Below, piece after piece: positions 12,203-59,329 of a DNA stretch of 64,000 nucleotides. The stretch comes from a virus. The stretch spans positions 1-64,000 of the IMG/VR virus record IMGVR_UViG_3300032224_001591; one strand, given 5' to 3'. The translations under genes and the position numbers were made by a program. Every line of letters starts with the position of its first letter. The stretch's first letter is position 1. The notes under the pieces were generated by a model, which saw only the letters and a list, made by a program, of their open reading frames with translations, was not told where the DNA came from and made no database searches.

Positions 12203-13375
12203 ATGGCTGTATATAAAATATTTCCCACTAAAGACGCAACAATATATTCTTTATTCCCTAACATGAATACGGGATTAGATGAAATTATTGAAGCAACCGA
12301 AACCCAAATTAGCGCTACTAATAATTCTAACCCAGCAGCTAGTAGATTTCTTATTCAGTTTTCTCCAGATGAAGTAGATAGTGTGTTAGAAAATATAATT
12401 GGAATTAGTAGTTCAGCTCAATTATTAAGTAGTAATTGGAAAGCAGAATTACAATGTTTTGTAGCAACAGCAACAGGATTAGCATTAAATACAACTCTAG
12501 ATTGCTTCCCGGTTTATGGTGATTGGGGAATGGGAACAGGACATTATTTAGATGATCCTAGTGTAACTAATGGAACTAGTTGGATATGGAAAGACTATTC
12601 AGGTTCAGTTAAATGGTTAACTAGTGGTTATCCAACAGGTGTAACCGCTTCTTATAATATAGCATTCGCACCATCCGGTGGTGGAAATTGGTGGACTGGA
12701 TCTACATCTACTTGGTTTAATACTAATACTTATCCTATAACTCAATCTCAAGTATTTAATTATTCTAGTAATAAAGATGTTAACATGAATATTACTAATA
12801 TAGTTAGAGCTTGGTACACAGGTTCAATTTCATGGGATGGTTTGATAATAAAACAATCTTCAGGATCAGAATTTGTAAATAATATTAATATTCAACCTGA
12901 GTTGAAATTCTTTTCAATTGATACTCATACAATATATCCTCCTCAACTTCAATTTAGTTGGAGAGATTATTCATATAATCCTGGTACTTTATCAACATTA
13001 AATACTTTACCAGCAACTATAACATTAGCTCAAAATCCTAATTTCTTTTATTCTGAAAGTATTAACAGATTTAGGGTTTATGCTAGACCAGAATACCCAA
13101 CACAAGTATGGAGTACAGTAAATCAAAATACTGTAAATTATGCTTTACCAACTGCATCTTATTATGCTATTAAAGATTTAGATACAAATGAATATGTTAT
13201 TGGGTTTGATACTCAATTTACTCAATTAAGTTGTGATACTACAAGTAGTTATTTTGACATGCATATGAATGGTTTAGAACCTGAAAGATATTATACTATT
13301 TTAATTCAAACAACTATTAATGGTTCAACATTAGTATTTAATGATCAATATTCATTTAAAGTAATAAACGGATAA
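12203..13375 (+). CDS. Virion structural protein (baseplate region)
   Basis: Located in the baseplate operon; beta-rich, PTKDATIY start, S/T-rich. Confidence 0.6.
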   Translation: MAVYKIFPTKDATIYSLFPNMNTGLDEIIEATETQISATNNSNPAASRFLIQFSPDEVDSVLENIIGISSSAQLLSSNWKAELQCFVATATGLALNTTLDCFPVYGDWGMGTGHYLDDPSVTNGTSWIWKDYSGSVKWLTSGYPTGVTASYNIAFAPSGGGNWWTGSTSTWFNTNTYPITQSQVFNYSSNKDVNMNITNIVRAWYTGSISWDGLIIKQSSGSEFVNNINIQPELKFFSIDTHTIYPPQLQFSWRDYSYNPGTLSTLNTLPATITLAQNPNFFYSESINRFRVYARPEYPTQVWSTVNQNTVNYALPTASYYAIKDLDTNEYVIGFDTQFTQLSCDTTSSYFDMHMNGLEPERYYTILIQTTINGSTLVFNDQYSFKVING

Positions 13376-13734
13376 TGGCAGATCAAATAACATTAGTAAA
13401 ACAACAGTACAATAAAGCACAGTACAATAAGGTAATTGATAATAATTTTACTCAATTAACGCAACCTGTTGACTTAACTCAAACCATTGTACCTAATGCT
13501 GATAATATTAGCGTACAACAATTTTTTGATTATTACCAACAATTATTTTATGTTATCCCTAAATTTGGAGATATAAATTCTCATCAGTATCTTATTACGA
13601 CGAGTACAGAATATATAGGTGGTACAACTCAAAATGATGATTTAGTTCAATCATTGTTAGAAGAGGTAACACAATTAAGACAAGAAAATTTAGATTTACA
13701 ACAACAAATAGTAGATATAACAAAGACAATATAA
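13375..13734 (+). CDS. Hypothetical structural protein
   Basis: Translationally coupled; C-terminal coiled coil. Confidence 0.6.
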   Translation: MADQITLVKQQYNKAQYNKVIDNNFTQLTQPVDLTQTIVPNADNISVQQFFDYYQQLFYVIPKFGDINSHQYLITTSTEYIGGTTQNDDLVQSLLEEVTQLRQENLDLQQQIVDITKTI

Positions 13735-13737
13735 CAA

Positions 13738-16700
13738 ATGGCTGAAATAGTTAACATATCACAATTAAATCCTCAAACATTTGAGTTACAAGAATATTCT
13801 CAACAGGATACTAGTCTTATTATAGCTACAGATGTATTTGATACTTTTGATCCTACTATTGATCATATTGAATATTTTATTTATGATTTAAATAGAACCC
13901 CACTATATGTTAATGATGATAGCTATCCTGTTTATTCCTTAATTAATAATACTTTAGTTATTGATCCTGAAGAGGATCTAAAACGTCAAGGATTTACTGA
14001 AGGTAATTATAATACATTATATAATTTCTTAAAAAATAGATTAGCATCAAGTTATGAATATCGTTATTATATAAGTCAAATTAGTTCTGATAGAACAGAA
14101 GTTAGATTAGATACCACATCTATTTCAAATGCGGATGTTATATTTTCAACAAATGAATTTATAGATTATAGAGCTAGTAGTAGTGTATTTGTAGATTTTT
14201 ATTTAGATTTTGGTAATAATAATTTAGTTATTGCTAATAATATTTTATTAGACCCTACAGATCCTTTAAATCCAACGGTATTAATTAAATTATATGAACC
14301 TTTACCTCAAAATTTTGATGTTAATTCACAATGTTGGGTAGTAGAAACTATATCTAATCCCGTCGCATATAATATTAATATAATACAAACTTTTGATTTT
14401 TTAGATAATGGTATTCCTTTACAAGGACCTAATTTAAATATATCTCTTAAAGATCAAATTAATAATTCAACACCTTATTATACTTATAATAATTTAACTT
14501 CTAACACATCAACATTAGGAACAGGTAGTTTACAATATCAAATTAATAGTATATTAGCTGAAAGAGGATTAGAAATTAATATTGACTACTCCGACTACTC
14601 AGATTTTGTATTTTTTGGATCTGCTTTAAATCAATTAGAAAATTTTTATTATAAATTATCACTACTCCAAACATATCAATATAGTGCTAGTATTGCCGGT
14701 CCTAGTACTACTAGTACTTATGTATCTTCTAGTAATAATGTTTGGTTAAATAAAATAAATGAAATTATAACAGGTTTTAGTGGATATGAATATTATCTTT
14801 ATTATGAATCAGGAAGTCATGCTTGGCCTAAAACTAATTCAACATATCCTTACATAAATGCTGCTGCTAACTCAGTAGCAGGTTTATCATTTTTAACAAC
14901 ACAATCAGTTTCGGCATCATTGTATGATGAGGAAAATAATAATCAATTAATAAATGCTATACCTTCATACTTAAGAGAAGATCCGAGTAATGATCAATAT
15001 CAACTATTTGTAAATATGGTTGGTCAAAATTTTGATAGTGTTTGGGTTTATATTAAAGATGTTACAAATAAATTCAATGCTGATAATCGTTTAAACTATG
15101 GTGTATCTAAAGATTTAGTAGCCGATATTTTAAGAGATTTAGGTGTTAAAATATATCAAAATAATTTTTCAACAAATGATTTATATTCTGCTCTATTAGG
15201 TATTTCACCTTCAGGCAGTTTATATAATTTACCTTATACAACAGGTTCATTACCAACACCATCAGGATACCAATACGTTAACACGTATATAACGGCGTCT
15301 GCTACTGGTTCCTTGATGCCTACATATGATATCAATGCTGAAACCTATAAACGCATTTACAATAATTTACCTTATCTTCTTAAAAAGAAAGGTACACCTG
15401 AAGGTTTAAGAGCATTGATTACATTATATGGTATTCCTGATACTATTTTACGTATAAATGAGTTTGGGGGTAAAGATAAAAATCAAAATACTTGGGATTA
15501 TTGGCAAGATGAATTTAATTATGCTTTTAGTGTATCTAAAAATGGATCTATAAGAATTCCATTTACAGCATCTTCAGCCCCGTATGGTACTACTTATCCT
15601 AATTCTATTGAATTTAGATTTAAAACAACAGGTTTACCTACAGCTTCTATTTCATATAGTCAATCCTTATGGAAACATACTACAGCTAATTTAGGTGTAG
15701 TATTAGAATATACAGGCTCAGCTTATACAAGTGGATCGTATAGTGGATCTATTATTGATCCTTATTACCAATATGCTAATCTTAAATTTATAAGTGGATC
15801 AGCATCATCCAGTGTTTATTTACCATTTTATAATGGTGGTTGGTGGTCTGTAATGGTTAATAAAGATAATAGTAATATTTATACTTTATATGCTAAAGAT
15901 AAAAATTATGAAGGTGAAGATGGAAATATCATTGGATTCCAAGCATCATCAAGTTTAACAGGATCTAGTTCTTGGGCGGTAAGTGGATCTTTAATATTTG
16001 GTTCGGGTAGTGTTCTTGCTGGTAAAACATATACTGCCTTTAGTGGTTCATATCAAGAAATAAGATATTATAATGTACCTTTAAGTGAAAGTGCATTTGA
16101 TGCTTATGTAATGAATCCTAATTCAATTGAAGGAAATACAATAAGTAGAGCTCAATCCTCTAAAAATAGTTTATTCTTTAGATTATCTTTAGGAGGTGAA
16201 TTATACACAAGTTCACTTTCAATCCACCCCGGTATTACCGGTTCAACTCCTGTTACTCAATCATTCATAAACAATAGTTTATCAGCTACATTTAGTGGAT
16301 CTTATTCATTTGTTTCAAATTATGAAGTATCATATTATGATCAAGTAATAGCAGGTATCCAAAATCCAGTATCTGAAAAAATTCAAAATAAAAATAATGT
16401 ACTACCTTTTACAAGTAGTAACTCAACATATGGTGGGGTACCTAATAATCAAGTATTATCCCCATTTATTTCAGTTCAACAAACGATTCCTGCAAGTAGT
16501 TCATATACAGCAAACGTAGATTATCTTGAAGTAGCTTTTTCTCCTCAAGATGAAATAAATGAAGATATAAATGATTCAATTGGTTATTTTAATATTGGTG
16601 AATTAATAGGTGACCCTAGAGAAGTACCTTCACGTAATACAAGTTATCCATTATTGGATGCTTTAAGAAATGAATATTTTACTAAATATTCGGGTAATTA

Positions 16701-17421
16701 TAATATTTGGGATTATGTAAGACTTATCAAATATTTTGATAATTCATTATTTAAAATGATCCAAGACTGGATACCAGCACATACGGATGCAGCTACAGGT
16801 ATTGTAATTAAACAAACATTATTAGAAAGAAACAGATATCCTCAACCACAAGCAAATATTGTTACCTCACAATCTTATTATGGTAGTGGTAGTAACCCAA
16901 ATATAGCTTGGGATACTCAAATTCCTTTTGAAGATATTACATTAACCGCTTCAATCAGACAAATTCCGGGAATATTAAACGGACAAAAAATATTTACTGC
17001 TTCTACCCAATATGAATCTTTTCCTATTGAACAAGTAACAGGTAGTTCAGGAGGTGTAATGCCTGAATTAAATGGTACTTCATCGGTTAATTTATATGTT
17101 AATATAAATCAAGTTTGGAGTGGTTCAAATTCAAGTCCTTTAGGTCCTATTCCTTTTATTGAATCATATCAATATGAATTTTTTAATGGTGAATTAAGTG
17201 GCTCCGTTATTGTTACAGATAAATTAGGTAATTTAACAGATCCAGATTGTCTACCATATTTACAAGCAAGTAAATCCCCTACCCCCTATAAACCAGTATT
17301 TTATAAATCAGATCAAATGTTAGGATCTAATAATTCAATATCTGTATTTTTAGACGCTAACACATCACCAAACAACGGAGAAATATATATTTATTGGGAC
17401 TCTGGTAGTTTTAACATATAA
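13738..17421 (+). CDS. Large baseplate protein (gp7-like) with LamG-like domain
   Basis: YKRIYNNLPYLLKKKGTPEGLRALITLYG baseplate motif; IEFRFK...WWSVMV...GSYQEIRYYN..LS. Confidence 0.65.
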   Translation: MAEIVNISQLNPQTFELQEYSQQDTSLIIATDVFDTFDPTIDHIEYFIYDLNRTPLYVNDDSYPVYSLINNTLVIDPEEDLKRQGFTEGNYNTLYNFLKNRLASSYEYRYYISQISSDRTEVRLDTTSISNADVIFSTNEFIDYRASSSVFVDFYLDFGNNNLVIANNILLDPTDPLNPTVLIKLYEPLPQNFDVNSQCWVVETISNPVAYNINIIQTFDFLDNGIPLQGPNLNISLKDQINNSTPYYTYNNLTSNTSTLGTGSLQYQINSILAERGLEINIDYSDYSDFVFFGSALNQLENFYYKLSLLQTYQYSASIAGPSTTSTYVSSSNNVWLNKINEIITGFSGYEYYLYYESGSHAWPKTNSTYPYINAAANSVAGLSFLTTQSVSASLYDEENNNQLINAIPSYLREDPSNDQYQLFVNMVGQNFDSVWVYIKDVTNKFNADNRLNYGVSKDLVADILRDLGVKIYQNNFSTNDLYSALLGISPSGSLYNLPYTTGSLPTPSGYQYVNTYITASATGSLMPTYDINAETYKRIYNNLPYLLKKKGTPEGLRALITLYGIPDTILRINEFGGKDKNQNTWDYWQDEFNYAFSVSKNGSIRIPFTASSAPYGTTYPNSIEFRFKTTGLPTASISYSQSLWKHTTANLGVVLEYTGSAYTSGSYSGSIIDPYYQYANLKFISGSASSSVYLPFYNGGWWSVMVNKDNSNIYTLYAKDKNYEGEDGNIIGFQASSSLTGSSSWAVSGSLIFGSGSVLAGKTYTAFSGSYQEIRYYNVPLSESAFDAYVMNPNSIEGNTISRAQSSKNSLFFRLSLGGELYTSSLSIHPGITGSTPVTQSFINNSLSATFSGSYSFVSNYEVSYYDQVIAGIQNPVSEKIQNKNNVLPFTSSNSTYGGVPNNQVLSPFISVQQTIPASSSYTANVDYLEVAFSPQDEINEDINDSIGYFNIGELIGDPREVPSRNTSYPLLDALRNEYFTKYSGNYNIWDYVRLIKYFDNSLFKMIQDWIPAHTDAATGIVIKQTLLERNRYPQPQANIVTSQSYYGSGSNPNIAWDTQIPFEDITLTASIRQIPGILNGQKIFTASTQYESFPIEQVTGSSGGVMPELNGTSSVNLYVNINQVWSGSNSSPLGPIPFIESYQYEFFNGELSGSVIVTDKLGNLTDPDCLPYLQASKSPTPYKPVFYKSDQMLGSNNSISVFLDANTSPNNGEIYIYWDSGSFNI

Positions 17422-17430
17422 AATTAAACA

Positions 17431-19392
17431 ATGGCAAATACACCCGTATATACAAGAGGAGTTAAATATATTAAAGTAGCACGAGTAGATGCTAATGGAA
17501 AAGATAATTCAAATCAATTACAAAATCTAACAGATATTAGAGAAGTATTTTCTGATATTAGTTATCCTATCCAATATGATATTGTTAGTGTAACTGAATA
17601 TCCAACCTACTATCTTTATGCTACTATACCAACCGATATTACATCATCTGCTAATCAAGAAGTATTAAATTATTCCTTATCAGGAAGTTCAACAACTATA
17701 GTAAGTGCACCGGCTGGTTTTCCTAGTAACCCTCAAAGATTTGTATCAGCTTCTATAAAATCGGGAACAAATACTTTAGGATATTTTAATTCAACTAACG
17801 GTATATATACTTTTGGAAATACACCTAATATATCTTTAAGTTGGACAGCTTCTGTAACAGGTAGCAGAACAGCATTTATTGAAGTTGGTAATTTTTTATT
17901 AAATCAAACTGATTCTAATGGTAATTTTTTAAACCCAACTTCATCCTATAATTTTACATACCCTACCAATACAACCTTTAGAGGCACATTTTCAGGATCT
18001 TTTACTCCTGTAGAAAATCAAACCTATGGTTTTGGTATTTCAAACAATGCTAGTGGATTAACGGGTATAACTAATTTTCAATTTTCAATAACACAATCTT
18101 ATAATACTCAATCTTCTACAACAGATGTAGTAGTATTAGAACCATATGTTGATGAAAATTTTGATAATAGTGATTGTAATGTTCTACAAAATAATGTTGA
18201 TATAAATAGATTTGATGGATTTTTTATGGAAATGGATTTTACAAGTGGATCTATTTTACCTCAAAATCAACAAGCAATATTAAGTGGCTCAGCAATGAGA
18301 GCACAAGTTCAGCCTTGGAATTATACATATTCTTCTCAAGTAATAAGTAGATATAGTGGTAAAGAACAAAATGCTATTGCTGTAAATGTCTACACAAGTG
18401 CTAGCCAATTTGTAACAGCATCAGCATATGGATTTAGTGGTTCATGGCCGGGTGATACAACCTCTCCTTCATTGAATGGTGGAATAGTTATCCAACAATT
18501 AGATAGTTGTATTTATGAAACTAATTGGGCTGGGGGAGGATATCCTGAAAATTCATACGGTGGTGCTTTTAGTTTAGGAGATATAATGTTAGTAGGAGAA
18601 AATAAAGACGTTGTTCAAATATTTAAATCAGACAGTCCTTTATACTATCAAATTTTAAATCAAAATTTATCCTTTAGATCATCATTTATTCAAAGATCAT
18701 ATACCCCTAATAATGCTTTATCCTCTCAGTTAACCTCATTATACCCAGGAGTACAACTTCAAGATGCAGCTTATTGGGTACCTTCAAATTACACTATTAG
18801 TTCTTTAAATCAAGGTGGTTATTTTTATCCAACTGGTTCACCTACGTATAATGTGCCCTATATGAATTTTGCTACAGTAATTACTAACCTAATATATCTA
18901 CCCTCAGGGACCAGAAATTCATCAGGCACACAACAAACAGGTTCTTTAGCTACAGCAAGTATAGCTTTTGCTTCTATTTCAAGTAGTTTAAATGCTGGAA
19001 ATAAATGGTATTTAAGTTTTTATCAATCTTTAGGAAATATAGCTGATGGAACTGATTTTTATCAATATGGTTATCCTTTTGAAGTAACTAAAATGGTTCA
19101 AAATGGTATTTATTCTTATGATTTTTTACTTAAAGCAGATGCAAGATCCTATTTTCCAACCAGTAGCAATCCATATTCCGCTTATCCTATAGGCTACTCA
19201 GGTAGCCAAAGTAACACTGGAGTATTATTTGTTCAAGGAATACCAAATCAAAATCAATTAGTAGCATATGGTGATAACTGGCAGGATTTTAGTTCAAATG
19301 CTGGATATTTAACTTTACCTTATCCTAAAGCAGTTATAACTCAAAACGCTAATTATATTACTAAACAATATGGTAATAATCCAAACCCTTAA
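17431..19392 (+). CDS. Virion structural protein
   Basis: S/T/N/Y-rich beta protein in the tail operon. Confidence 0.55.
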   Translation: MANTPVYTRGVKYIKVARVDANGKDNSNQLQNLTDIREVFSDISYPIQYDIVSVTEYPTYYLYATIPTDITSSANQEVLNYSLSGSSTTIVSAPAGFPSNPQRFVSASIKSGTNTLGYFNSTNGIYTFGNTPNISLSWTASVTGSRTAFIEVGNFLLNQTDSNGNFLNPTSSYNFTYPTNTTFRGTFSGSFTPVENQTYGFGISNNASGLTGITNFQFSITQSYNTQSSTTDVVVLEPYVDENFDNSDCNVLQNNVDINRFDGFFMEMDFTSGSILPQNQQAILSGSAMRAQVQPWNYTYSSQVISRYSGKEQNAIAVNVYTSASQFVTASAYGFSGSWPGDTTSPSLNGGIVIQQLDSCIYETNWAGGGYPENSYGGAFSLGDIMLVGENKDVVQIFKSDSPLYYQILNQNLSFRSSFIQRSYTPNNALSSQLTSLYPGVQLQDAAYWVPSNYTISSLNQGGYFYPTGSPTYNVPYMNFATVITNLIYLPSGTRNSSGTQQTGSLATASIAFASISSSLNAGNKWYLSFYQSLGNIADGTDFYQYGYPFEVTKMVQNGIYSYDFLLKADARSYFPTSSNPYSAYPIGYSGSQSNTGVLFVQGIPNQNQLVAYGDNWQDFSSNAGYLTLPYPKAVITQNANYITKQYGNNPNP

Positions 19393-20114: not shown

Positions 20115-21164
20115 ATGGCTGGAACATTTATAACACTAGACCCTGCAGACTTTGTAGTAAGCTCAGATGCAATTACAGCAACGCTATGGTCAGGAGGATC
20201 TCCAACATTATCTACATTCTACACTTCATCAACACAAGAAGCAGGTTCATCAGGTAATTTTTACTTAAACGTATATCAAACCGCATCTACTGATTCTAAT
20301 GCAGCTATTCAATTTGCTATTGCTTATGGTAATAATAATGGTAGTGGTAGTCAAGATTATAATTTAGCGGTAGATGGTTATTCACCAACATCGACAATTT
20401 TTGGTCAATGGCAAGATTTAGTAATTGGAGATGAAAATACAAATTTTACATTTGGTACAATTACATCTTCTCAATTTTACGTCTTATCAGTTGATAGAAC
20501 AAGATATAAAGAAGCATTAGCTTTAGGCACTTTATCTTTAACATTATCAGGTAGTTCAGGTTCAATTACCTTAACTGATAATAGTAATTATACAACAGCC
20601 GTTACAACTACAGGTGCTGGAGTAACAGTATATCAATTAATTACAGGTTCTCAAGGTACTAAAGCAACAATTACTTCTAGAAATACAGCTGATGGATACT
20701 CAGCAAACTCAGGTTCTTATGGTTGGTTATTACCACAATTAGGAGCTATTGTTTTGAATCCTTTAGCATTAGCTGATTTTGCTACAAGTGGAGGTATTGG
20801 GTTTCAATATAGTGGTTCATCTACAGGTTCTGTAGTTCCAAATAATTCACCGAATAGAAGTTTATACCAAGCAATTAGTGGATCAGGTAATTTTAAATTA
20901 AATAGTCAAGAAACAATTACTTCAGATTACGTGTTTGTAAGAGCAAGAAGTTCAGAATTTAATTATTCAGAAAACCCATCTTATATTTCAGGCTCAACTG
21001 GTGAAGTATTGTATCCTTACTTTATTAATAATCCTCAAACGTATATTACTACAATTGGTTTATATAACGATTCAACTGAGTTACTAGCAGTAGCTAAATT
21101 ATCAAGACCATTGTTAAAAAACTTTACTAAAGAAGCTTTAGTTAGAGTTAAGTTAGATTTTTAA
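20115..21164 (+). CDS. Baseplate/tail structural protein
   Basis: C-terminal YITTIGLYND..ELLAVAKLSRPL motif. Confidence 0.6.
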   Translation: MAGTFITLDPADFVVSSDAITATLWSGGSPTLSTFYTSSTQEAGSSGNFYLNVYQTASTDSNAAIQFAIAYGNNNGSGSQDYNLAVDGYSPTSTIFGQWQDLVIGDENTNFTFGTITSSQFYVLSVDRTRYKEALALGTLSLTLSGSSGSITLTDNSNYTTAVTTTGAGVTVYQLITGSQGTKATITSRNTADGYSANSGSYGWLLPQLGAIVLNPLALADFATSGGIGFQYSGSSTGSVVPNNSPNRSLYQAISGSGNFKLNSQETITSDYVFVRARSSEFNYSENPSYISGSTGEVLYPYFINNPQTYITTIGLYNDSTELLAVAKLSRPLLKNFTKEALVRVKLDF

Positions 21165-21167
21165 TGG

Positions 21168-22187
21168 ATGATAGCATTCAAACAATTATTAACATCTGAT
21201 GTCATAGTGACACCGCTAGAGGTAAACAAAGCGTTTGCCTTTAGTGGTAGTCAATTAATTAGTTCTAGTGTAGGTATAGATAGATTTTTAGGAGCTTTAT
21301 CAACAGCAAGTTTATTTGATCCTACAACCGAACCTACAACCGGTTATTTATCAACCCAATACCAAACATTAGTATATAGTTCAATTAGAGAACTATATTA
21401 TTCAAACTATATAGGTAATCTTTACGGTAGTCCTTTAAATACAGCTAGTCTTGTACCTAATACTGTTCCTGTATTAGCTCCTCAAAGTTTACCAACAACA
21501 GGGGTATTAGTAGGTACTACACCATCACCCGGACTATATGATAATTACTTACAAAGTACATTAACTTTTCCTCGATATTTTCCTTCAGGTTCTTATATTC
21601 CCCCGGGTTCAAGTTATGGAACAGGATCTTATGGTATAGGAATATTCCAAGGATATCCAGTAACAGCAACTATTGGTGTTATATCAATCCCAAGTCGTTT
21701 ATACGGAGATTTTATTCAACCTAACTCATTTATATTTACGGCACCAAGTGGAACATTTTATGATGATGGTGAAGGTAATTTATTATTATCCGGTTCAAAT
21801 ATATTGTGTGGAAATATATTCTATGGACAAGGTTTAGCAGTAATAACATCAGGTTCAATATCAGCTTCAGTAGCTATTGACATACTTAATTATATAACAT
21901 CTTCAAATATAACATGTTCATTCTCTTCTTCACTTACTATTTATGAAAATCAATATAAATGTACTATTAGAGAAAATGAATTTACTTACACATTAAATCC
22001 AACTTTAACTACAGACCAAAGTGGTTCCTTACCAGGTTATGTAACCGGATCTTATTGGTCTCCATATGTAACAACAGTAGGTTTATATGATGATGCTCAA
22101 AACTTACTTGCTATAGGAAAATTAGCTCAACCATTACAAACATCGCCTACAACAGATACTACAATACTTATAAACATAGATATGTAA
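21168..22187 (+). CDS. Baseplate/tail structural protein (paralogue of previous)
   Basis: YVTTVGLYDDAQNLLAIGKLAQPL; DDGEGNL. Confidence 0.6.
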   Translation: MIAFKQLLTSDVIVTPLEVNKAFAFSGSQLISSSVGIDRFLGALSTASLFDPTTEPTTGYLSTQYQTLVYSSIRELYYSNYIGNLYGSPLNTASLVPNTVPVLAPQSLPTTGVLVGTTPSPGLYDNYLQSTLTFPRYFPSGSYIPPGSSYGTGSYGIGIFQGYPVTATIGVISIPSRLYGDFIQPNSFIFTAPSGTFYDDGEGNLLLSGSNILCGNIFYGQGLAVITSGSISASVAIDILNYITSSNITCSFSSSLTIYENQYKCTIRENEFTYTLNPTLTTDQSGSLPGYVTGSYWSPYVTTVGLYDDAQNLLAIGKLAQPLQTSPTTDTTILINIDM

Positions 22188-29432: not shown

Positions 29433-29999
29433 ATGTCAGAATCAGTTTTAAAAAAAGAGTTCCAACAACGCGATATAGAACGTATGCGTAACCTAATGAC
29501 AGGTAAGCATGGTGATAAAACGGTGGTTGGAATAGGTTACACTAAGCAAGAAGAGTTTCATAAAGAAGGTGACGTTTGGGAAGAAGATGGACGTAAATGG
29601 ACTATTAAGAATGGTATAAAACAAAATTTAACCAAACTTGATAAAGCAAAACAAGAGCTACATTTACCCCTATTTTGCTCACATTGCAACAATCTTATGA
29701 AACCCCATCTTGATAAACGTTTTTGGATTATGTATAAACGTTGCTTTAATTGTCAAGTAGATTTTGAGGCAGAGATTAGAAAACAAGGACTGTGGGAAGA
29801 ATATGAGAAAAACATTATCAATTCAGATATTGATTCTACAATTAAAGAATTTATGATTTGGAGTGATGAATATATAAATGAAACTGATTCATTCGTAACC
29901 GAAACCGGTGAAGTTGAAAAGTGGATAGGTAAGGGTAAAGAAGTGTTACAACAAAATGTTGAAGAAACAATTAAATACTTACAAAGCTTAAAAAAATAA
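29433..29999 (+). CDS. Zinc-finger protein
   Basis: CSHC...CFNC; EGDVWEEDGRKWTIKNG. Confidence 0.7.
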   Translation: MSESVLKKEFQQRDIERMRNLMTGKHGDKTVVGIGYTKQEEFHKEGDVWEEDGRKWTIKNGIKQNLTKLDKAKQELHLPLFCSHCNNLMKPHLDKRFWIMYKRCFNCQVDFEAEIRKQGLWEEYEKNIINSDIDSTIKEFMIWSDEYINETDSFVTETGEVEKWIGKGKEVLQQNVEETIKYLQSLKK

Positions 30000-48118: not shown

Positions 48119-48385
48119 ATGGCAAACATACCAGTAAATGCAACCGCAATAACAAAATTCCAAGGACAATCTGTAACAGGATCTTTTGCAGGATTTGTTG
48201 TGTGCCCTAACACATCAACTTCTCCTCAAGGAACAGTAGCTCATTTCCATGGTTTAAAAGATGGAAATGGAAACGAATTAGTAGTATCCGCTTCTTCTTT
48301 ATATTTTTTACCAGGATATTATCCAATATTTGTAACTAGTGCTTCTTTAGATGCTACAAGTAACAATGTAATATTTTTTACTTAA
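48119..48385 (+). CDS. Small beta-rich head protein
   Basis: Located in the head operon; TGS/SAS motifs. Confidence 0.6.
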   Translation: MANIPVNATAITKFQGQSVTGSFAGFVVCPNTSTSPQGTVAHFHGLKDGNGNELVVSASSLYFLPGYYPIFVTSASLDATSNNVIFFT

Positions 48386-50961: not shown

Positions 50962-52689
50962 ATGAGTCAAATTCAATCATTATTAGAATCTGCTAACCCA
51001 TACAAATCGTTACAAAGCGATGCAGCTAAATTAGCTAGCAAATGGGCAAAAACAGGCCTTTTAGAAGGCTTAGACGAGACAAACAGAAATAACATGTCTC
51101 TTATGCTTGAAAATCAAGCAAAACAATTAGTAAGCGAGGTATCATCTACTGGTACAGGTGCTTTCTTTACTCCAGGACAAGGTGAACAATGGGCTGGTAT
51201 CGCTTTACCGTTAGTACGTAAAGTGTTCGGTCAAATCGCATCTAAAGAATTCGTAAGCGTTCAACCGATGAACTTACCTTCTGGTCTTGTGTTCTTCTTA
51301 GATTTCCAATATGGAACTGGAAAGAATCCATTCGCAGTTAACAGTTCAGTTTATGGTACTACTGGTTCTCAGTATCCATTTGCTACTCCATCTGCATCTG
51401 GTGGTCTTTATGGCGCTGGTCGTTTCACGTATTCTACCAACCAATTTAGTGCTTCTGTTAATTTAACAGGTTCGGTTTCAGGTTCAGCATTACCTGCTAA
51501 CGTTGCAGCTAGTACAGCTACAGTAGTTACAGCTTCTTGGTCTAACTTGAACTTTGATTCTGATTACTCTGCTTCAGTTGCAGCAAATCAAATCTATGCA
51601 GTTACTGTTCCAACAGCTTCTACTGCTTTATCTGCATTTGACCAAGACGCAGTTCGTGGTTTTACTACTTACTACTCTGTAGGTACAGGCGTTACTGGTG
51701 CTACATTTGGTACAGGTTCAATTTTACCTGCATTTACCACTTATAACTACACTGCTAACACAATCACTTTCTACTACACTGCTTCTACAGCAATTACTGC
51801 AGCTAACCTTTCTGGTTCAATGACTATCTTCTATAATAAACAAACTGACGATAACCGTCGTGGTGATTTTGAAGATTCTACAGCAACTACGTTCTCTATT
51901 CCGAATGCGCAAAGTACTAGTACTATCGTAATTCCTGAGATCAACATCAGTATGCAATCACAAGAAATTACAGCTAAAACTAAAAAATTAAAAGCTGTAT
52001 GGACTCCTGAGTTTGCACAAGATTTGAATGCTTACCAAAATATCGATGCTGAAGCTGAATTAACTAACATGTTAAGCGAGTATATCTCTATGGAGATTGA
52101 TCTTGAAATCTTAGATATGTTGATTGAAGACGCTGCAGCTGGTACTGAATACTGGTCAGCAATCAATAACAACGTTTATAACGGTTCAACAGGTGCTTTC
52201 TCAACTGGTGGTTCTGCTTTCTATAACACTCAAGGACAATGGTTCCAAACTTTAGGAACAAAAATCCAAAAATTAAGCAATAAAATTCACCAATTAACTT
52301 TAAGAGGTGGTGCTAATTTCATGGTAATTTCTCCTACAGTAGCAACTATCATCGAATCTATCCCTGGATTTGCTTCTAACAACAATGGCGAAGCTGATCA
52401 AATGGAATACGCTTTCGGTGTACAAAAAGTTGGTTCATTCAATGGTCGTTACAAAGTTTACAAAAACCCTTACATGACTGAAAACACTATCTTATTAGGA
52501 TACCGTGGTACTCAGTTCTTGGAAGCAGGTGCTGTATTCGCTCCGTACATTCCGTTGATCATGACTCCATTAGTGTACGATCCAAATACCTTCACTCCAC
52601 GTAAAGGTCTATTAACTCGTTACGCTAAGAAAATGTTACGTCCTGAATTCTACGCTAAGATCTATGTTAATGGTTTAAATACCCTTTAA
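50962..52689 (+). CDS. Major capsid protein (gp23-like)
   Basis: KW..TGLLEG, LENQ, VSVQPMNLPSGLVFFLDF, KKLKAVWTPE.AQDL.AY, APYIPL, PRKGLLTRY. Confidence 0.97.
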   Translation: MSQIQSLLESANPYKSLQSDAAKLASKWAKTGLLEGLDETNRNNMSLMLENQAKQLVSEVSSTGTGAFFTPGQGEQWAGIALPLVRKVFGQIASKEFVSVQPMNLPSGLVFFLDFQYGTGKNPFAVNSSVYGTTGSQYPFATPSASGGLYGAGRFTYSTNQFSASVNLTGSVSGSALPANVAASTATVVTASWSNLNFDSDYSASVAANQIYAVTVPTASTALSAFDQDAVRGFTTYYSVGTGVTGATFGTGSILPAFTTYNYTANTITFYYTASTAITAANLSGSMTIFYNKQTDDNRRGDFEDSTATTFSIPNAQSTSTIVIPEINISMQSQEITAKTKKLKAVWTPEFAQDLNAYQNIDAEAELTNMLSEYISMEIDLEILDMLIEDAAAGTEYWSAINNNVYNGSTGAFSTGGSAFYNTQGQWFQTLGTKIQKLSNKIHQLTLRGGANFMVISPTVATIIESIPGFASNNNGEADQMEYAFGVQKVGSFNGRYKVYKNPYMTENTILLGYRGTQFLEAGAVFAPYIPLIMTPLVYDPNTFTPRKGLLTRYAKKMLRPEFYAKIYVNGLNTL

Positions 52690-53508: not shown

Positions 53509-53934
53509 ATGGCGGATTTTAATTTACAAATATTAGAAAAAATAACAATAAACAATGTTGTTAGGGATGTATATACAACTCAAACAATCACTGGTATAAA
53601 TTTTATTGATAATAGAATATTAACTACCCCAACCGGATCTACTACTACAATATTCTCATTTGGTTCAGCTAATAATGCAGGAACTTTTATTACAAGTAGC
53701 TTTCAATATGGTAGAATAACTAATCAATCAGATACTATTCCTCTTAAACTTATTGTTTCATCATCAAATGAAGCTATGAGTTATTTAGTAAATCCTTCTA
53801 GTACATTTATGTTAACTACTACTAAAATGACAGGAAGTACTAATCTAGGAACATTTAATGATATAGTATCCGTAAAAGTAATCCCATCAGGAAGTGCAAG
53901 TGTTAATGTAGAATATTTTATAGCAACAACTTAA
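53509..53934 (+). CDS. Virion structural protein
   Basis: Beta-rich, S/T-rich, upstream of the neck genes. Confidence 0.6.
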   Translation: MADFNLQILEKITINNVVRDVYTTQTITGINFIDNRILTTPTGSTTTIFSFGSANNAGTFITSSFQYGRITNQSDTIPLKLIVSSSNEAMSYLVNPSSTFMLTTTKMTGSTNLGTFNDIVSVKVIPSGSASVNVEYFIATT

Positions 53935-55086: not shown

Positions 55087-55087
55087 T

Positions 55088-55597
55088 ATGGCTATATTTG
55101 GCTCAGCTCGTGATGTAAGTATGTTCCGAAAGGTAAATAGAGAATTAATGGGTAACGTTATTTCTCAAGAGTGTGTTTATTATAAAGTAAATGAAGCTCA
55201 AACCCAAGTTAACATGTACGGCGAGCAACAAGGTGGAAGATATTTTTCTCCTCCTATCATATTTAACTGTTTAATTGAAGTAGGAGATCAAACCGCTCCG
55301 ACTAATGATGGATTAGTAGGATTTGATTGGCCTCTTACTTTTAGATTTTTAAGAGATGATCTAGTAGATGCTAATTTAGTCCCAGCTATTGGAGACTTTA
55401 TTATGTACCAAAATGCATATTGGGAAGTAGATAATGAAAATATGACCCACTTCTTCGTAGGTAAAGATCCAGATTATCCTTATAATGTTAACCCATTAAA
55501 TCCAGGATTAGAATTCTTTGGTTACAATGTTGATGTTATTTGTCAATGTCACTATGTACCACAAGATCGTATTAACATTGTAAACGCTAGATACTAA
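55088..55597 (+). CDS. Neck/head-closure protein (gp14-like)
   Basis: NMYGE, P.IGDFI.Y....WEV; follows the gp13-like gene. Confidence 0.7.
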   Translation: MAIFGSARDVSMFRKVNRELMGNVISQECVYYKVNEAQTQVNMYGEQQGGRYFSPPIIFNCLIEVGDQTAPTNDGLVGFDWPLTFRFLRDDLVDANLVPAIGDFIMYQNAYWEVDNENMTHFFVGKDPDYPYNVNPLNPGLEFFGYNVDVICQCHYVPQDRINIVNARY

Positions 55598-56538: not shown

Positions 56539-56587
56539 CAAATTAGGTTTCAATATTTATAATAGAATAAAAATTTTTAAATAAGTA

Positions 56588-59329
56588 ATGGCTAGAGTTA
56601 GATTTTTAGACCAAGTCCCTGTTGGAGTATATGCGGTTGATGGAGCAACAGGTAGCGGTTCTGCCGGATTACCAGGTTCTTCAGGAACATCAGGCTCAAG
56701 TGGTTTAGCAGGAACTAGTGGTAGTTCAGGTCTTTCAGGTACTTCTGGTTCTTCAGGTTTATCAGGTACAGCAGGAACAACAGGAACATCAGGTTCAACT
56801 GGTACTTCAGGAAGTAGCGGAATAAACGGAACATCAGGCTCTTCAGGATTAAGTGGAACATCAGGTAGTTCAGGTTTAAGTGGTACAAGTGGTACTTCAG
56901 GATCTTCAGGTTCAACTGGTACTTCAGGTTCATCAGGAACTAGTGGTTCTTCAGGATTAAGCGGAACATCAGGTTCAAGCGGTTTAGCAGGAACTAGTGG
57001 TAGTTCAGGAATAACTCAAAATACAGGTTCATTATTAGTTACCGCATCTGCTGCAGGTAACGTAATTACTTTTACTAAAGGAGATACTTCAACATTTAAT
57101 GTTACTGTAGATACAGGTTCTACAGGTATTTTTGTCCAATCAGGATCTTCAAATGTATATTTTACTACTTCTTCTTTAAAAATTACAGGAAGTACACTAC
57201 AAACAGCTGGAGCTCCTCCTATAACAACTGTTGCTACTCAATCAGCAGGTAATAATTATGCTCTTGTAGTAAGTCAATCAGGATGGTTTTATAATGTTAA
57301 TGCCGGAGTACCAACATCAAATGCTTGGGGTACAAATTTATCTGGTTCTTATTTTAATAACTTTACAAGTAATACGGATGTTTCTGAAATTTTAAGATTT
57401 GTAGCGGGATTATTAAGTGCTTCAGCACCCGATGCTTCTCCAAATACAAGAACTTATAGTACTACTCTTACTGAGAATCAATTAAATAATGGAACAACTG
57501 CTTCCCCTTCTGGTTTTGTACCTCAATCAGCTACAAACTCAGATGTTACTTATTTAACAGTTAAAGGATTTGCACCTACCGGTTCAGCTTTATTTTCAGG
57601 TAAAACTATATATAGTAACTCAGCATTTTCAGCAAATTATTCAAGTATAGCTGCTGGTTCTACTCTAGTATCATCATCAGCAAACGCTCAATTATTTGGG
57701 TTAGGCCCTTTAACAAGTGGAGGTCCAACACAATTTAACGTTTCAGGAACAATTAACTGGTTCTATTCAGATAACAATAATGAAACTAGTACAGCTACTT
57801 CACAGTCTGAAAATATATTATCTCAATCATCTTTTGCAACAACAAATGGTTTAACATTAGCTAAAATTAATACAGCTAACCCATCTGTAATACCTGCAGC
57901 TTATCAAGATGGTTTATTTACTAACATTTATACTTCAAGTTTATATAATGGTGGCAGATCATTTACTAGTGTAAGTTCTTCAGGCTGGTATCATATTAGT
58001 TCTTCTATAAAGATATCTTCAGGAAGTTCAGCATACAGTACTCCTGCTACGGATAAATTAAGAATATTCTTTTCTCCAATAGGTAGTTTAACAATTCCAA
58101 ATAATACTTTAGCTTTAGGATATGCGGGTAATGCTCCAACAACAGCTACTTCACGTTCATTATCCGGAGCTCCTTATTTATTAACAGCTACTTGGGATAT
58201 TTCATCTTCAGTAACAGGATTATTTAGTCCTTTATATTATACTTCATCAACAATAGCCGATTTTAATAAATCAGATACTTTAATAACATTAGCAGGAACA
58301 ACAGCGGCTTCAACAGCTACGGGTACTGTTCAAACATCAAATGCTATTTATGATTCAACAGGTACAACTGCTAGAACAATTGGTACTATACCGTTTGAAA
58401 CAGATATAGTAAAACTTACCGGTTCATCAACATTTAATGCTGGTGCGGCTGGAGCTACTAATATTACTGTTAACTCAATATCACCAACAACATATTCTTT
58501 ATTAACAAGAGGTATAAATAAAAATGGTACTCAATCTACTGTAACTACTCAAACAATATCTTATTTTACCTCTGGTACTTTTTCACAACCTGTAGGTTCG
58601 GGTTCAATGGCTTATTATGGTAGAGCTCAAGGATATGATGGTGGTTCATTAACAGGTACTACAGAACAATTTAGTGGAGAAACATACAGACTTCAAATAA
58701 CAGGTTCTTTATTATCAGGATCATATGCTAATGGTACTAAATTTGTTACTGGCTCATATTCAGTTTATACTTTAGGTGCTTTAGACTTACAAGTAAAACC
58801 AGGATATTTAGTAAAACCATCAGGTTCTACAGCTAATGGATATTGGTTAGCAAACCCAAGTGAAGCTCAAACATACAAATATTATGCTAGAGCATTCCAA
58901 ACTAATGGAACTGTTTACAGTGCAATGACTATAAATGTAGGACAAACATTAACTCCATGGACTGGTTCAGCTAATAATGCTGTTTCTGTTTTAGTTATGT
59001 TTTCTTCTTCTGTAGCGGGTACTGCTATTCCTAGTGGTGGTGGTGCTACATTACCTAGAGCGGTTTTATTTGATCCAAGTGCATTGTCTAATTTATCAAT
59101 AGCAACCAATCAAGCACAAGATAATTTTTTAAATCCTTTTTCTTCATCAATTGATATAAAAGGAAATAACCAAGGAGGTTCAGGTCTTGTGGGAACTACA
59201 TATACTATTCCTCTTACTGATACTCTTAATCAATTATTAACATCTGTTTATAAAGATTTAATAGTTATGGTACGATATAATGGCCAACCAGCCACTCCAG
59301 TTTCAACAATAACCGTAGGATTTAGTTAA
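56588..59329 (+). CDS. Fibre/appendage protein with Gly-X-Y (GTS-GSS-GLS) segment
   Basis: N-terminal Gly-X-Y tract followed by a large S/T/G-rich beta region. Confidence 0.7.
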   Translation: MARVRFLDQVPVGVYAVDGATGSGSAGLPGSSGTSGSSGLAGTSGSSGLSGTSGSSGLSGTAGTTGTSGSTGTSGSSGINGTSGSSGLSGTSGSSGLSGTSGTSGSSGSTGTSGSSGTSGSSGLSGTSGSSGLAGTSGSSGITQNTGSLLVTASAAGNVITFTKGDTSTFNVTVDTGSTGIFVQSGSSNVYFTTSSLKITGSTLQTAGAPPITTVATQSAGNNYALVVSQSGWFYNVNAGVPTSNAWGTNLSGSYFNNFTSNTDVSEILRFVAGLLSASAPDASPNTRTYSTTLTENQLNNGTTASPSGFVPQSATNSDVTYLTVKGFAPTGSALFSGKTIYSNSAFSANYSSIAAGSTLVSSSANAQLFGLGPLTSGGPTQFNVSGTINWFYSDNNNETSTATSQSENILSQSSFATTNGLTLAKINTANPSVIPAAYQDGLFTNIYTSSLYNGGRSFTSVSSSGWYHISSSIKISSGSSAYSTPATDKLRIFFSPIGSLTIPNNTLALGYAGNAPTTATSRSLSGAPYLLTATWDISSSVTGLFSPLYYTSSTIADFNKSDTLITLAGTTAASTATGTVQTSNAIYDSTGTTARTIGTIPFETDIVKLTGSSTFNAGAAGATNITVNSISPTTYSLLTRGINKNGTQSTVTTQTISYFTSGTFSQPVGSGSMAYYGRAQGYDGGSLTGTTEQFSGETYRLQITGSLLSGSYANGTKFVTGSYSVYTLGALDLQVKPGYLVKPSGSTANGYWLANPSEAQTYKYYARAFQTNGTVYSAMTINVGQTLTPWTGSANNAVSVLVMFSSSVAGTAIPSGGGATLPRAVLFDPSALSNLSIATNQAQDNFLNPFSSSIDIKGNNQGGSGLVGTTYTIPLTDTLNQLLTSVYKDLIVMVRYNGQPATPVSTITVGFS
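56666..57010 (+). repeat. Uninterrupted Gly-X-Y coding repeat (~38 triplets, ~9-aa period)
   Basis: GLP GSS GTS GSS GLA GTS GSS GLS ... Confidence 0.9.

What the first reader, a model, noticed from the sequence alone, without database searches (positions are those of the whole stretch)
12203..59329. Virion-wide [ST]-[GA]-S motif: candidate sequon for phage-directed surface modification
Seen: SGS/TGS/SAS/TAS (also TSS), usually after a hydrophobic or aromatic residue, is scattered through unrelated structural proteins. Examples: 13738 (YTGSAYTSGSYSGSII, LTGSSSWAVSGSLIFGSGSV), 20115 (about ten by hand count in 349 aa), 12203, 17431, 21168, 48119, 53509, 56588, 59341 and the MCP insertion (LTGSVSGSA, VTASW, YSASV, YTAST, LSGSM). 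I could not find it in terminase, portal, primase or the protease, and it is rare in core gp6/gp13. Convergence on one tripeptide across non-homologous folds is not explained by repeat expansion. Known: some phages glycosylate capsid and tail proteins with their own glycosyltransferases. Inference: an undescribed O-glycosylation (or similar) sequon coating the virion. No modifying enzyme is visible in this window.
Basis: partly seen in the sequence, partly recalled or inferred. Interest (0 to 1): 0.8.

Follow-up and report, generated by a model that had tools for sequence, protein, structure and literature searches.

The report
Ser/Thr-small-Ser tag on phage surface
The outer-facing parts of this aquatic phage's capsid, tail sheath and baseplate proteins carry the tripeptide Ser/Thr-Gly/Ala-Ser about five times more often than chance, a pattern that follows a phage-encoded sugar-transferase gene set and so may mark where a sugar coat attaches, though no chemistry shows this yet.

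Summary
In nine globular virion proteins of the window, [ST]-[GA]-S occurs 102 times against about 20 expected (z about 18, even with 15-residue local shuffles). Codons are diverse, the order of residues matters, and position 3 must be Ser. The motif sits only in outward domains (capsid insertion domain, variable part of the sheath, baseplate periphery). T4, Syn33 and the larger RM378 proteins lack it.

Enzymes do exist, outside the window. A true TibC/Aah-type heptosyltransferase plus two GT4 genes lie at 69.6-74.4 kb. However, that module tracks a giant collagen-like Ser/Gly fibre, not the dispersed motif, which is equally dense in four complete relatives without it. A second locus at 129-138 kb (two GT-B enzymes, one GT2, a deoxy-sugar pathway) is present in all eight motif-rich genomes. 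Its 428-aa GT and GT2 are absent from motif-poor relatives, including LR756508, which is nested inside the clade.

Best reading, at about 45%: an O-glycosylation sequon read by this core locus. Main rival: a surface sequence style with no modification. In the two collagen-like fibres the motif is a repeat by-product.

The scan has noted this motif before in related genomes. I found no published description.

The parts
12203..13375 (+). Baseplate-region protein just after the gp6-like wedge protein, 390 aa, 6 motifs vs 1.0 expected
   Evidence: Orthologs in 6 relatives are also enriched, 4-9 vs 0.6-1.0. The LR756508 ortholog has 0 vs 0.3.
13738..17421 (+). Large baseplate or fibre-like protein, 1227 aa, 28 motifs vs 3.2 expected; no Pfam or PHROG family
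   Evidence: Orthologs range from 3/1.6 to 23/4.0.
17431..19392 (+). Virion protein, 653 aa, 14 motifs vs 2.6 expected; poorly conserved among relatives
20115..21164 (+). Baseplate-region protein, 349 aa, 10 motifs vs 2.0 expected
   Evidence: Its C-terminal 74 aa are related to ORF 21168.
21168..22187 (+). Baseplate-region protein, 339 aa, 10 motifs vs 1.3 expected
48119..48385 (+). Small head-module protein, 88 aa, 3 motifs vs 0.3 expected
50962..52689 (+). Major capsid protein (gp23 family), 575 aa, 11 motifs vs 2.0 expected
   Evidence: PF07068. AlphaFold model with pLDDT 82 matches T4 gp23 structures at E down to 1e-20.
51337..51936 (+). Capsid insertion domain (residues 126-325), which holds all 11 capsid motifs
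   Evidence: In 128 orthologs the mean is 8.1 motifs, all within residues 126-325 plus a few at 401-425. Over 71 diverse relatives the insertion domain has 325 vs 80 expected and the rest of the protein 12 vs 36.
53509..53934 (+). Small Thr/Ser-rich virion-module protein, 141 aa, 4 motifs vs 0.5 expected
   Evidence: The immuto and G001 orthologs each have 4/0.7.
56588..59329 (+). Fibre protein, 913 aa. The N-terminal ~150 aa are collagen-like Gly-X-Y, where the motif is a repeat by-product. The globular remainder carries about 16 dispersed motifs.
   Evidence: PF01391 Collagen and tail-fibre PHROGs; site list.
59341..64000 (+). First half of a 3190-aa proline-free collagen-like (Gly-X-Y)n fibre that runs to genome position 68913. 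Its [ST]GS count is a repeat by-product. It is the likely substrate of the TibC-like enzyme downstream.
   Evidence: Gly occupies every third position at 0.72-0.97, and 213 of 250 [ST]GS are in GxxGxxG register. Proteins with at least 50% Ser+Gly+Thr occur only in TibC-positive genomes.

Best explanation
[ST]-[GA]-S, usually between hydrophobic residues, is a short acceptor tag for O-glycosylation of the phage's own particle. Virion proteins would be modified in the host cytoplasm before assembly by the phage's core sugar locus at genome 129.2-138.2 kb. That locus holds a 477-aa and a 428-aa GT-B enzyme, a 213-aa GT2, an RmlC-like 3,5-epimerase, two NAD-dependent epimerase/dehydratases and a methyltransferase, so it could make and transfer a methylated 6-deoxyhexose-containing glycan. 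The invariant Ser at position 3 would be the acceptor. The small residue at position 2 would give the enzyme access, and the hydroxyl at position 1 would be a recognition contact or a second acceptor. The result would be a hydrophilic coat on the capsid insertion domain, the outer sheath domains, the baseplate periphery and the fibres. The TibC-type heptosyltransferase with its two GT4 genes at 69.6-74.4 kb is a separate accessory module that most likely glycosylates the giant collagen-like fibre. Shown: the motif statistics, its protein-level nature, its location in variable outward domains, its lineage restriction, and the gene content and co-distribution. Inferred: every enzymatic step, the acceptor residue, the sugar and the biological role.
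For: 1. Sharp position profile over 53 virion proteins (27,773 aa) from 8 genomes: position 1 S 5.2x and T 4.6x; position 2 G 6.2x, A 3.5x, S 2.2x, with charged residues at 0.1-0.4x; position 3 S 4.9x but T only 1.3x. Asp and Asn, which substitute for Ser/Thr in turns and helix caps, are not enriched (0.5-1.1x). The tripeptides exceed first-order Markov expectation by 1.9-2.7x.
2. The motif is restricted to outward, variable domains: capsid insertion domain and sheath residues 62-428, with none in the Pfam-matched sheath domains at 433-700. It is absent from tube, portal, terminase, protease and the GTs.
3. In the confident capsid model the 11 sites lie in mixed contexts: 4 at strand ends, 2 at strand starts, 3 in coil, 2 in helical turns. 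This does not fit one structural element.
4. Density is maintained while sites turn over. Substitutions at conserved sites stay within the motif (site 273: TAS 53, TGS 42, SAS 10, SGS 4), and many sheath sites are unique to this phage.
5. It is not generic to T4-like phages: T4 9/21, Syn33 1.27x, no RM378 protein of 300 aa or more significant, Vibrio phage 0.8x.
6. The GT477, GT428 and GT2 genes are core genes in all 8 motif-rich genomes. Among 50,697 phage records, GT428 and GT2 occur only in immuto and Mel-JY01. LR756508, RM378 and LR756511 lack GT428 (GT2 absence) and lack the motif: LR756508 orthologs plus the RM378 sheath pool to 9 vs 5.3, with Ser+Thr at 9-16%.
7. LR756508 is nested inside the clade spanned by this phage and Mel-JY01 in the capsid-core tree (sister to Mel-JY01, support 0.94). 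RM378 is also nested. These are therefore co-losses rather than outgroup states.
8. The closest solved relative of GT477 is chlorovirus GT B736L (3OY2, E 1.2e-9). It comes from a virus group whose members encode the glycosylation machinery for their own capsid protein (PMC4691112).
Against: No glycan has been shown on any particle of this clade, and I found no paper on it. The GT-motif association rests on two or three independent contrasts read from a single-gene tree. One contrast is a 484-kb jumbo phage whose virion proteins are altogether poorer in Ser/Thr, so a general change of surface composition could explain it. The GT locus sits near DNA-modification genes (DUF1599, methyltransferase, 7-deazaguanine pathway) and could act on DNA or on host polysaccharide instead. 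LR756508 and RM378 retain a homolog of GT477 without having the motif. Motif residues are not significantly more conserved than other Ser, Thr, Gly or Ala residues in the same capsid domain (p = 0.19-0.34). Solvent exposure could not be computed because no coordinates were available, and the sheath model failed. The enrichment extends to capsid relatives at 30-38% identity whose GT status is unknown.
Confidence: 0.45

Rival explanations
1. The motif is a surface sequence style with no modification. Outward beta-rich domains of this phage lineage have evolved a Ser/Thr-rich, uncharged surface. Hydroxyl-small-Ser next to hydrophobic strand residues would be favoured for physicochemical reasons such as hydration, low stickiness, protease resistance or strand-end stability. 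The GT locus would then be merely a co-inherited clade marker.
For: The enrichment is ancient and spread over the whole capsid family tree, down to 30% identity. Six of 11 capsid sites lie at strand boundaries and flanks are hydrophobic, 53-54% vs 33% background. In LR756508 the motif and overall Ser+Thr content fall together. Individual sites are no more conserved than neighbouring Ser/Thr. There is no direct evidence of any modification.
Against: Thr, which favours beta-strands, is not accepted at position 3 (1.3x vs 4.9x for Ser). Asp and Asn are not enriched at either end, which is unexpected for a turn or capping motif. Permuted tripeptides of the same composition are not enriched, and 15-residue local shuffles leave z at 17. 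Secondary-structure contexts are mixed. T4 and Syn33, and the RM378 and Vibrio-phage regions sampled, have comparable folds without the motif.
Confidence: 0.3
2. The TibC/Aah-type heptosyltransferase at genome 73190-74395, with its two GT4 partners, is the enzyme that reads the dispersed [ST]-[GA]-S motif.
For: It is a true family member: TIGR04414 at 342.7 bits against a cutoff of 200, and 4RAP at E 1e-63, with the catalytic and iron-binding residues conserved. It lies inside the virion gene block next to the sheath gene in 80 related contigs. TibC modifies Ser and not Thr, in small-residue loops (PMC4358343), which matches the strict Ser. Genomes with the enzyme have slightly higher motif density, mean 5.4x vs 4.4x.
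Against: Four complete or near-complete relatives without any TIGR04414 match have 3.6-5.0x enrichment in the same six protein families. The difference between groups is not significant (one-sided rank test about 0.06, my own count from the values, and not corrected for phylogeny). The enzyme instead co-occurs with giant Ser/Gly/Thr fibres, which are present in 3 of 4 genomes with it and 0 of 4 without. Known TibC sites are Ser followed by GG or AA, not [ST]-[GA]-Ser.
Confidence: 0.07
3. The motif is read by a host enzyme or marks another modification, such as phosphorylation or acylation, or it is a docking site for a decoration protein or host ligand.
For: The chemical specificity for hydroxyl residues does not by itself say which group is added. 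The cultured relatives infect Flavobacterium and, as reported, Microcystis, so a shared host factor cannot be excluded.
Against: The motif is unlike the Bacteroidota O-glycosylation sequon D-[ST]-[AILVMT] (recalled from memory). Only 4% of residues at position -1 are charged, against 11% background, and that host system acts outside the cytoplasm. No kinase or acyltransferase was found among the core genes scanned. I have no positive evidence for this reading.
Confidence: 0.1
4. The enrichment is an artefact of composition, low-complexity repeats or a DNA-level motif.
For: This is true for the two collagen-like fibres, where the motif is a Gly-X-Y junction.
Against: For the globular proteins: z is 17-19 after local shuffles, 0 of 72 motifs lie in a Gly-X-Y register, codons are diverse, there are no internal repeats, and the enrichment is reproduced in eight genomes and 128 capsid orthologs.
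Confidence: 0.01

Closest known systems
Bacterial autotransporter heptosyltransferases: TibC with TibA, and Aah with AIDA-I, of E. coli (BAHT family, TIGR04414; PDB 4RAP, 4RB4)
   Same: The phage encodes a full-length family member with the catalytic Asp, the Lys, Arg and Trp sugar-binding residues and the four iron-binding Cys. It is a cytoplasmic enzyme that puts sugar on Ser, not Thr, in small-residue loops of beta-rich surface proteins.
   Different: There is no autotransporter substrate. The likely target is a collagen-like phage fibre. Known sites are Ser-Gly-Gly or Ser-Ala-Ala rather than [ST]-[GA]-Ser. The stereoselectivity residue Pro300 is Gly here. The dispersed motif is equally dense in relatives that lack the enzyme.
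Virion O-glycosylation of mycobacteriophages by phage-encoded glycosyltransferases (Freeman et al. 2023, Cell Host Microbe; recalled from memory, not read here)
   Same: Phage-encoded glycosyltransferases are proposed to modify the phage's own capsid and tail proteins in the cytoplasm, giving a sugar-coated particle.
   Different: In mycobacteriophages the sugars have been shown experimentally and, as I recall, sit on C-terminal extensions with no defined short sequon. Here there is a defined tripeptide dispersed through folded domains, different enzyme families, a different host phylum and no chemistry.
Chlorovirus PBCV-1 capsid protein Vp54 glycosylation by virus-encoded enzymes (PMC4691112)
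   Same: The virus encodes its own nucleotide-sugar pathway (6-deoxyhexoses), glycosyltransferases and methyltransferases for its capsid protein, and attachment sites are atypical. The closest solved relative of the 477-aa GT is chlorovirus B736L (3OY2).
   Different: Chlorovirus glycans are N-linked to Asn with no common sequence pattern, in a eukaryotic host. The similarity to B736L covers only about 135 residues of the nucleotide-binding half.
GtfA/GtfB with serine-rich repeat adhesins of streptococci (SAS-type repeats; recalled from memory)
   Same: An adjacent pair of GT-B proteins of about 500 and 440 aa acts in the cytoplasm on Ser in Ser-Ala-Ser-type sequence. This resembles the 477 + 428 aa gene pair and the motif seen here.
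   Different: There is no significant sequence match (4PQG E = 0.16; no GtfA or GtfB NCBIfam hit). SRRP acceptors are long tandem repeats, not isolated tripeptides in folded domains.
General O-glycosylation of Bacteroidota, sequon D-[ST]-[AILVMT] (recalled from memory)
   Same: A short O-glycosylation sequon in the phylum of the probable host.
   Different: The sequence is different, since acidic residues are depleted before the motif here. That system also acts after export from the cytoplasm, where phage particles are not assembled.

Membership tests
BAHT (TibC/Aah) heptosyltransferases - tested for the enzyme at genome 73190-74395 | Full-length match to the family model above its curated cutoff | tested here: met
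   TIGR04414 at E 2.4e-102, 342.7 bits against a cutoff of 200, profile positions 2-373 of 374. TibC 4RAP at E 1.1e-63.
BAHT (TibC/Aah) heptosyltransferases | Catalytic base Asp110 and sugar-binding Thr226, Lys230, Arg286, Trp305 | tested here: met
   In the alignment, read against the residue list in PMC4358343, Asp, Lys, Arg and Trp are identical and Thr226 is Ser.
BAHT (TibC/Aah) heptosyltransferases | Iron finger of four Cys (339, 342, 358, 370) | tested here: met
   CxxC...WCP...FEC is conserved in the alignment; residue numbers are.
BAHT (TibC/Aah) heptosyltransferases | ADP-heptose donor and dodecameric ring | not testable with these tools
   The stereoselectivity residue Pro300 (Ser in Aah) is Gly here. 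I did not search for heptose-pathway genes in this phage.
BAHT sequon as the explanation of the dispersed motif | The motif should depend on presence of the enzyme across relatives | tested here: not met
   Enrichment is 3.6-5.0x in four genomes without the enzyme and 4.6-6.4x in four with it.
GtfA/GtfB glycosylation pair of serine-rich repeat adhesins | Sequence membership of the 477-aa and 428-aa GTs in the GtfA and GtfB families | tested here: not met
   No GtfA or GtfB model appears among NCBIfam hits at E up to 1. PDB 4PQG scores E 0.16 for GT477 and is absent for GT428.
Bacteroidota general O-glycosylation sequon D-[ST]-[AILVMT] | Asp immediately before the acceptor Ser/Thr | tested here: not met
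   Charged residues make up 4% at position -1 against 11% background. In the x-[GA]-S profile, Asp stands at 0.5x.
Collagen-like triple-helix fibres - tested for ORF 56588 N-terminus and ORF 59341 | Gly at every third residue over long stretches | tested here: met
   PF01391 at E 2e-16 for ORF 56588. Gly-phase fraction is 0.72-0.97 over about 2,800 residues of ORF 59341, with no Pro.
Phage virion glycosylation systems (mycobacteriophage type) | Glycan demonstrated on virion proteins | not testable with these tools
   Needs glycoprotein staining or mass spectrometry of purified particles. No paper on this clade was found.
T4-type major capsid protein (gp23, HK97 fold with insertion domain) | Family profile match and fold match to solved gp23 | tested here: met
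   PF07068 at E 1e-73. The model (pLDDT 82) matches 8GMO, 6UZC and 5VF3 at E 1e-20 to 1e-16.

The most novel reading that the evidence does not exclude
A defined three-residue O-glycosylation sequon, [ST]-[GA]-S, is read in the cytoplasm by a phage-encoded pair of GT-B enzymes plus a GT2. It coats capsid, sheath and baseplate of a globally abundant lineage of aquatic T4-like phages (more than 4,000 capsid clusters at 50% identity). A second, swappable TibC-type module sugar-coats collagen-like fibres in a subset. This would be the first short sequon for phage particle glycosylation.
Probability: 0.4. Interest if true: 0.8.

Novelty: new variant of a known kind. Interest (0 to 1): 0.62.

Why it matters
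Sugar-coated phage particles have been shown only in mycobacteriophages, and no sequence rule for where the sugars go is known. Here a simple, countable tripeptide marks the outward surfaces of many unrelated virion proteins in a very abundant group of aquatic phages. It co-varies with a specific phage sugar-transferase gene set.

If it is a sequon, phage surface glycosylation would become predictable from sequence. There would be a compact enzyme-plus-tag system for cytoplasmic O-glycosylation of folded proteins. It would also bear on how phages avoid proteases, sticking, grazers or host recognition in water.

The idea can be tested directly, because cultured relatives exist (vB_FspM_immuto on Flavobacterium sp. 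LMO8, and Mel-JY01). If it is not a sequon, it remains a clear example of a lineage-specific surface sequence style that needs an explanation.

Tried and rejected
1. The sheath structure prediction from 15 orthologs failed (mean pLDDT 35), so sheath motifs were placed only relative to the Pfam-matched domains.
2. The model tool gives no coordinates, so solvent exposure of the capsid motifs could not be computed. Only secondary structure was mapped.
3. Motif depletion in non-virion proteins (20 vs 35 here) looked like avoidance of off-target modification. T4 structural proteins show the same baseline (9 vs 21), so it is uninformative.
4. I searched for distant motif-rich and motif-poor capsid lineages in viral contigs and found nothing. 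Their metagenome contigs were too short (11-84 kb) or not searchable as whole records, so the GT-motif link could not be tested on more lineages.
5. GtfA/GtfB homology of the GT pair is not supported.
6. Extra conservation of motif residues over other Ser, Thr, Gly or Ala in the capsid insertion domain is not significant.
7. The distant homolog of the 477-aa GT in LR756508 and RM378 does not predict the motif. Only the 428-aa GT and the GT2 co-vary with it.
8. No clade-wide kinase, acyltransferase or other protein-modifying enzyme appeared among about 30 core proteins scanned. Several core proteins remain without any family.
9. A DNA-level motif is rejected by codon diversity. A shared repeated domain is rejected by all-against-all BLAST.

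Full report
WHAT THE WINDOW IS. The window is the first 64 kb of a 147,248-bp phage contig. All genes are on the + strand and GC is about 30%. It is a T4-like myophage. Its capsid protein is closest to Flavobacterium phage vB_FspM_immuto (55% identity), Microcystis phage Mel-JY01 (49%) and the uncultured phage LR756508 (47%). The lineage is very abundant: 4,045 capsid clusters at 50% identity in the representative library, and more than 598 viral contigs.

Against per-protein shuffles, [ST]-[GA]-S is enriched in ORFs 12203, 13738, 17431, 20115, 21168, 48119, 50962 (capsid), 53509, 56588 and 59341. It is essentially absent from the other roughly 55 ORFs, including terminase, portal, protease and primase.

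- Pooled over nine proteins, with the collagen-like part of 56588 removed and 59341 excluded, the count is 102 against 19-23 expected. The z-score is 17-19 whether shuffling whole proteins or windows of 30 or 15 residues.
- SGS, TGS and TAS are the three most over-represented of all tripeptides, and SAS ranks ninth. The five permuted orders are not enriched, or only weakly (the strongest, [GA]-S-[ST], reaches 34 vs about 20). [ST]-[GA]-T is not enriched (23 vs 17-19).
- Codons at each position follow background usage, with both TCN and AGY serine codons, so the constraint acts on the protein.
- Flanks are hydrophobic (53-54% vs 33% background) and poor in charged residues.
- The proteins are not detectably homologous to one another apart from two small paralog groups, and they have no internal repeats.

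A NECESSARY SPLIT. The 3190-aa protein that starts at 59341 is a proline-free collagen-like (Gly-X-Y)n fibre. Of its 250 [ST]GS, 213 are simply Y-G-X junctions in GxxGxxG register. In the globular proteins the figure is 0 of 72. The first ~150 residues of ORF 56588 are also collagen-like. These repeat-derived counts should not be pooled with the dispersed motif.

WHERE THE DISPERSED MOTIF SITS.
- Capsid: all 11 sites lie in residues 126-325. Across 128 orthologs the mean is 8.1 motifs per protein, all in that region apart from a small cluster at 401-425. Across 71 diverse relatives the insertion region has 325 vs 80 expected, and the rest of the protein has 12 vs 36. The AlphaFold model (pLDDT 82) matches T4 gp23 structures.
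- Sheath: all 16 sites lie in residues 62-428. None falls in the Pfam-matched sheath domains at 433-700.
- Proteins expected to be buried in the particle have none: tube, tape measure, hub, portal.
- On the capsid model, 4 sites are at strand C-termini, 2 at strand starts, 3 in coil and 2 in helical turns. That is not one stereotyped structural element. Exposure could not be computed.

SPECIFICITY. Over 53 virion proteins from eight genomes:
- Position 1 accepts S (5.2x) or T (4.6x) only.
- Position 2 prefers G (6.2x), then A (3.5x), then S (2.2x), and excludes charged residues.
- Position 3 is S (4.9x), with T at 1.3x.
- Asp and Asn, the usual alternatives to Ser/Thr in turns and helix caps, are not enriched.
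- The tripeptides exceed first-order Markov expectation by about 2-fold.

At conserved sites, substitutions stay inside the motif (capsid site 273: TAS 53, TGS 42, SAS 10, SGS 4). Many sheath sites are unique to this phage. Motif residues are nevertheless not significantly more conserved than other Ser, Thr, Gly or Ala residues nearby. So what seems to be maintained is density rather than particular positions.

LINEAGE RESTRICTION. T4 structural proteins give 9 vs 21, Syn33 gives 1.27x with no significant protein, the RM378 region has no significant protein of 300 aa or more (its pooled ratio is 2.35x on 18 vs 7.7), and a Vibrio phage gives 0.8x. The normal baseline for this tripeptide is therefore at or below expectation, which makes 4-6x more striking.

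CANDIDATE ENZYME 1: THE TibC-TYPE MODULE. Earlier first-reader notes on this genome (e1-5705097, e1-5705107) pointed to glycosyltransferases just past the window, and I tested this.
- Genome 73190-74395 is a full-length TIGR04414 member (342.7 bits, cutoff 200). It matches TibC 4RAP at E 1e-63 and conserves Asp110, Lys230, Arg286, Trp305 and the four iron-binding Cys. Thr226 is Ser and Pro300 is Gly.
- Two GT4 genes precede it. The order GT4, GT4, TibC-like, small variable proteins, sheath, tube is conserved in 80 viral contigs.
- TibC modifies Ser and not Thr, which is attractive given the strict Ser.
- The co-occurrence test fails. In six shared virion families, enrichment is 6.4, 5.2, 4.6 and 5.4x in genomes with the enzyme (this phage, Mel-JY01, G003, G005). 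It is 3.6, 4.6, 4.2 and 5.0x in complete or near-complete genomes without it (immuto, G001, G002, G004).
- What tracks the enzyme instead is the giant Ser/Gly/Thr fibre: present in 3 of 4 genomes with it and 0 of 4 without.

I therefore read this module as a fibre-glycosylation accessory. An earlier follow-up on another genome (e1-5668747) reached the same conclusion.

CANDIDATE ENZYME 2: THE CORE SUGAR LOCUS. Scanning genes shared by all eight genomes turned up a cassette at genome 129241-133532. It contains a 477-aa GT-B enzyme, a 428-aa GT4, a 155-aa protein and a 213-aa GT2. It is followed by an RmlC-like epimerase, two NAD-dependent epimerase/dehydratases and a methyltransferase. Immuto has the same order.
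- Among 50,697 phage records, the 428-aa GT and the GT2 occur only in immuto and Mel-JY01.
- LR756508, RM378 and LR756511 lack them.
- Those phages also lack the motif. The capsid regions give 1.1x and 1.0x. LR756508 orthologs of the motif-rich families, plus the RM378 sheath, pool to 9 vs 5.3, with Ser+Thr at only 9-16%.
- In a capsid-core tree, LR756508 is sister to Mel-JY01 (support 0.94) and lies inside the clade spanned by this phage and Mel-JY01. RM378 is also nested among motif-rich lineages. These are co-losses, not outgroup states.

This agrees with two earlier follow-ups on other genomes (e1-5511176, e1-5632146), and I tested it here only partly. It rests on few contrasts and a single-gene tree. 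LR756508 and RM378 keep a homolog of the 477-aa GT without the motif. The locus also lies near DNA-modification genes, so a role on DNA or host glycans is not excluded.

The closest solved relative of the 477-aa GT is chlorovirus B736L. It comes from a virus group that encodes the glycosylation machinery for its own capsid protein. A GtfA/GtfB-like pairing is not supported by sequence.

VERDICT. The glycosylation reading is partly supported.
- About 45%: a sequon for a glycan made by the core locus.
- About 30%: an unmodified surface sequence style.
- About 10%: another modification, a host enzyme or a docking role.
- About 7%: the TibC-type enzyme reads the dispersed motif.
- About 1%: artefact.
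- The remainder is undecided.

I found nothing on this in the literature searched. The scan has flagged the same motif in several related genomes.

Noticed in passing
Genome 69595-74395 (beyond the window; L002:10595-15395): A three-gene module inside the virion block: an 888-aa GT4 with a weak GT25-like C-terminus, a 315-aa GT4, and a 401-aa true TibC/Aah-type heptosyltransferase. The order is conserved next to the sheath gene in 80 viral contigs. In Mel-JY01 the same domains appear fused into one 1226-aa protein annotated as FkbM methyltransferase.
   Followed up: yes
Window 59341-64000, continuing to genome 68913: A 3190-aa proline-free collagen-like fibre (GSS, GTS, GST and GSN triplets over about 2,800 residues). 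It ends in a YSDERVKENI-type sequence that looks like a self-cleaving fibre chaperone domain. Fibres of this kind occur only in genomes that carry the TibC-like gene.
   Followed up: partly
Genome 116920-117234 (L012): A second, weak TIGR04414-like match (24 bits, profile positions 56-161) in a roughly 220-aa ORF with no Pfam family. It may be a stand-alone copy of the N-terminal part of the heptosyltransferase.
   Followed up: no
Genome 74395-76263 (L002:15395-17263): Three small paralogous proteins (212, 202 and 203 aa) between the TibC-like gene and the sheath gene. They are motif-rich (8/1.6, 3/1.1, 5/1.5), and this slot is variable among relatives.
   Followed up: partly
Genome 123642-125258, 113006-114862 and 118303-118938: A phage-encoded GroEL-type chaperonin, and a 7-deazaguanine pathway (QueC, PTPS, GTP cyclohydrolase I), are core genes of the clade. 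A DUF1599 nucleotide-modification domain and methyltransferases lie just upstream of the GT cassette.
   Followed up: no
Window 29433-29999 and 32532-34067: Core proteins with a weak RPB9-type zinc ribbon (E 2e-5) and a weak dockerin-like match (E 7e-4). Both score below the Pfam cutoffs.
   Followed up: no
L226:1732-3054 (metagenome contig carrying the motif-poor capsid P0215): A 440-aa GT1-like gene lies 8 kb upstream of a motif-poor capsid gene. Its relation to the cassette GTs could not be tested because the record was not searchable.
   Followed up: no
LR756508.1 202.6-208.4 kb (L239): This 484-kb uncultured phage has two sheath paralogs of about 825 aa side by side. Both are motif-poor.
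   Followed up: no
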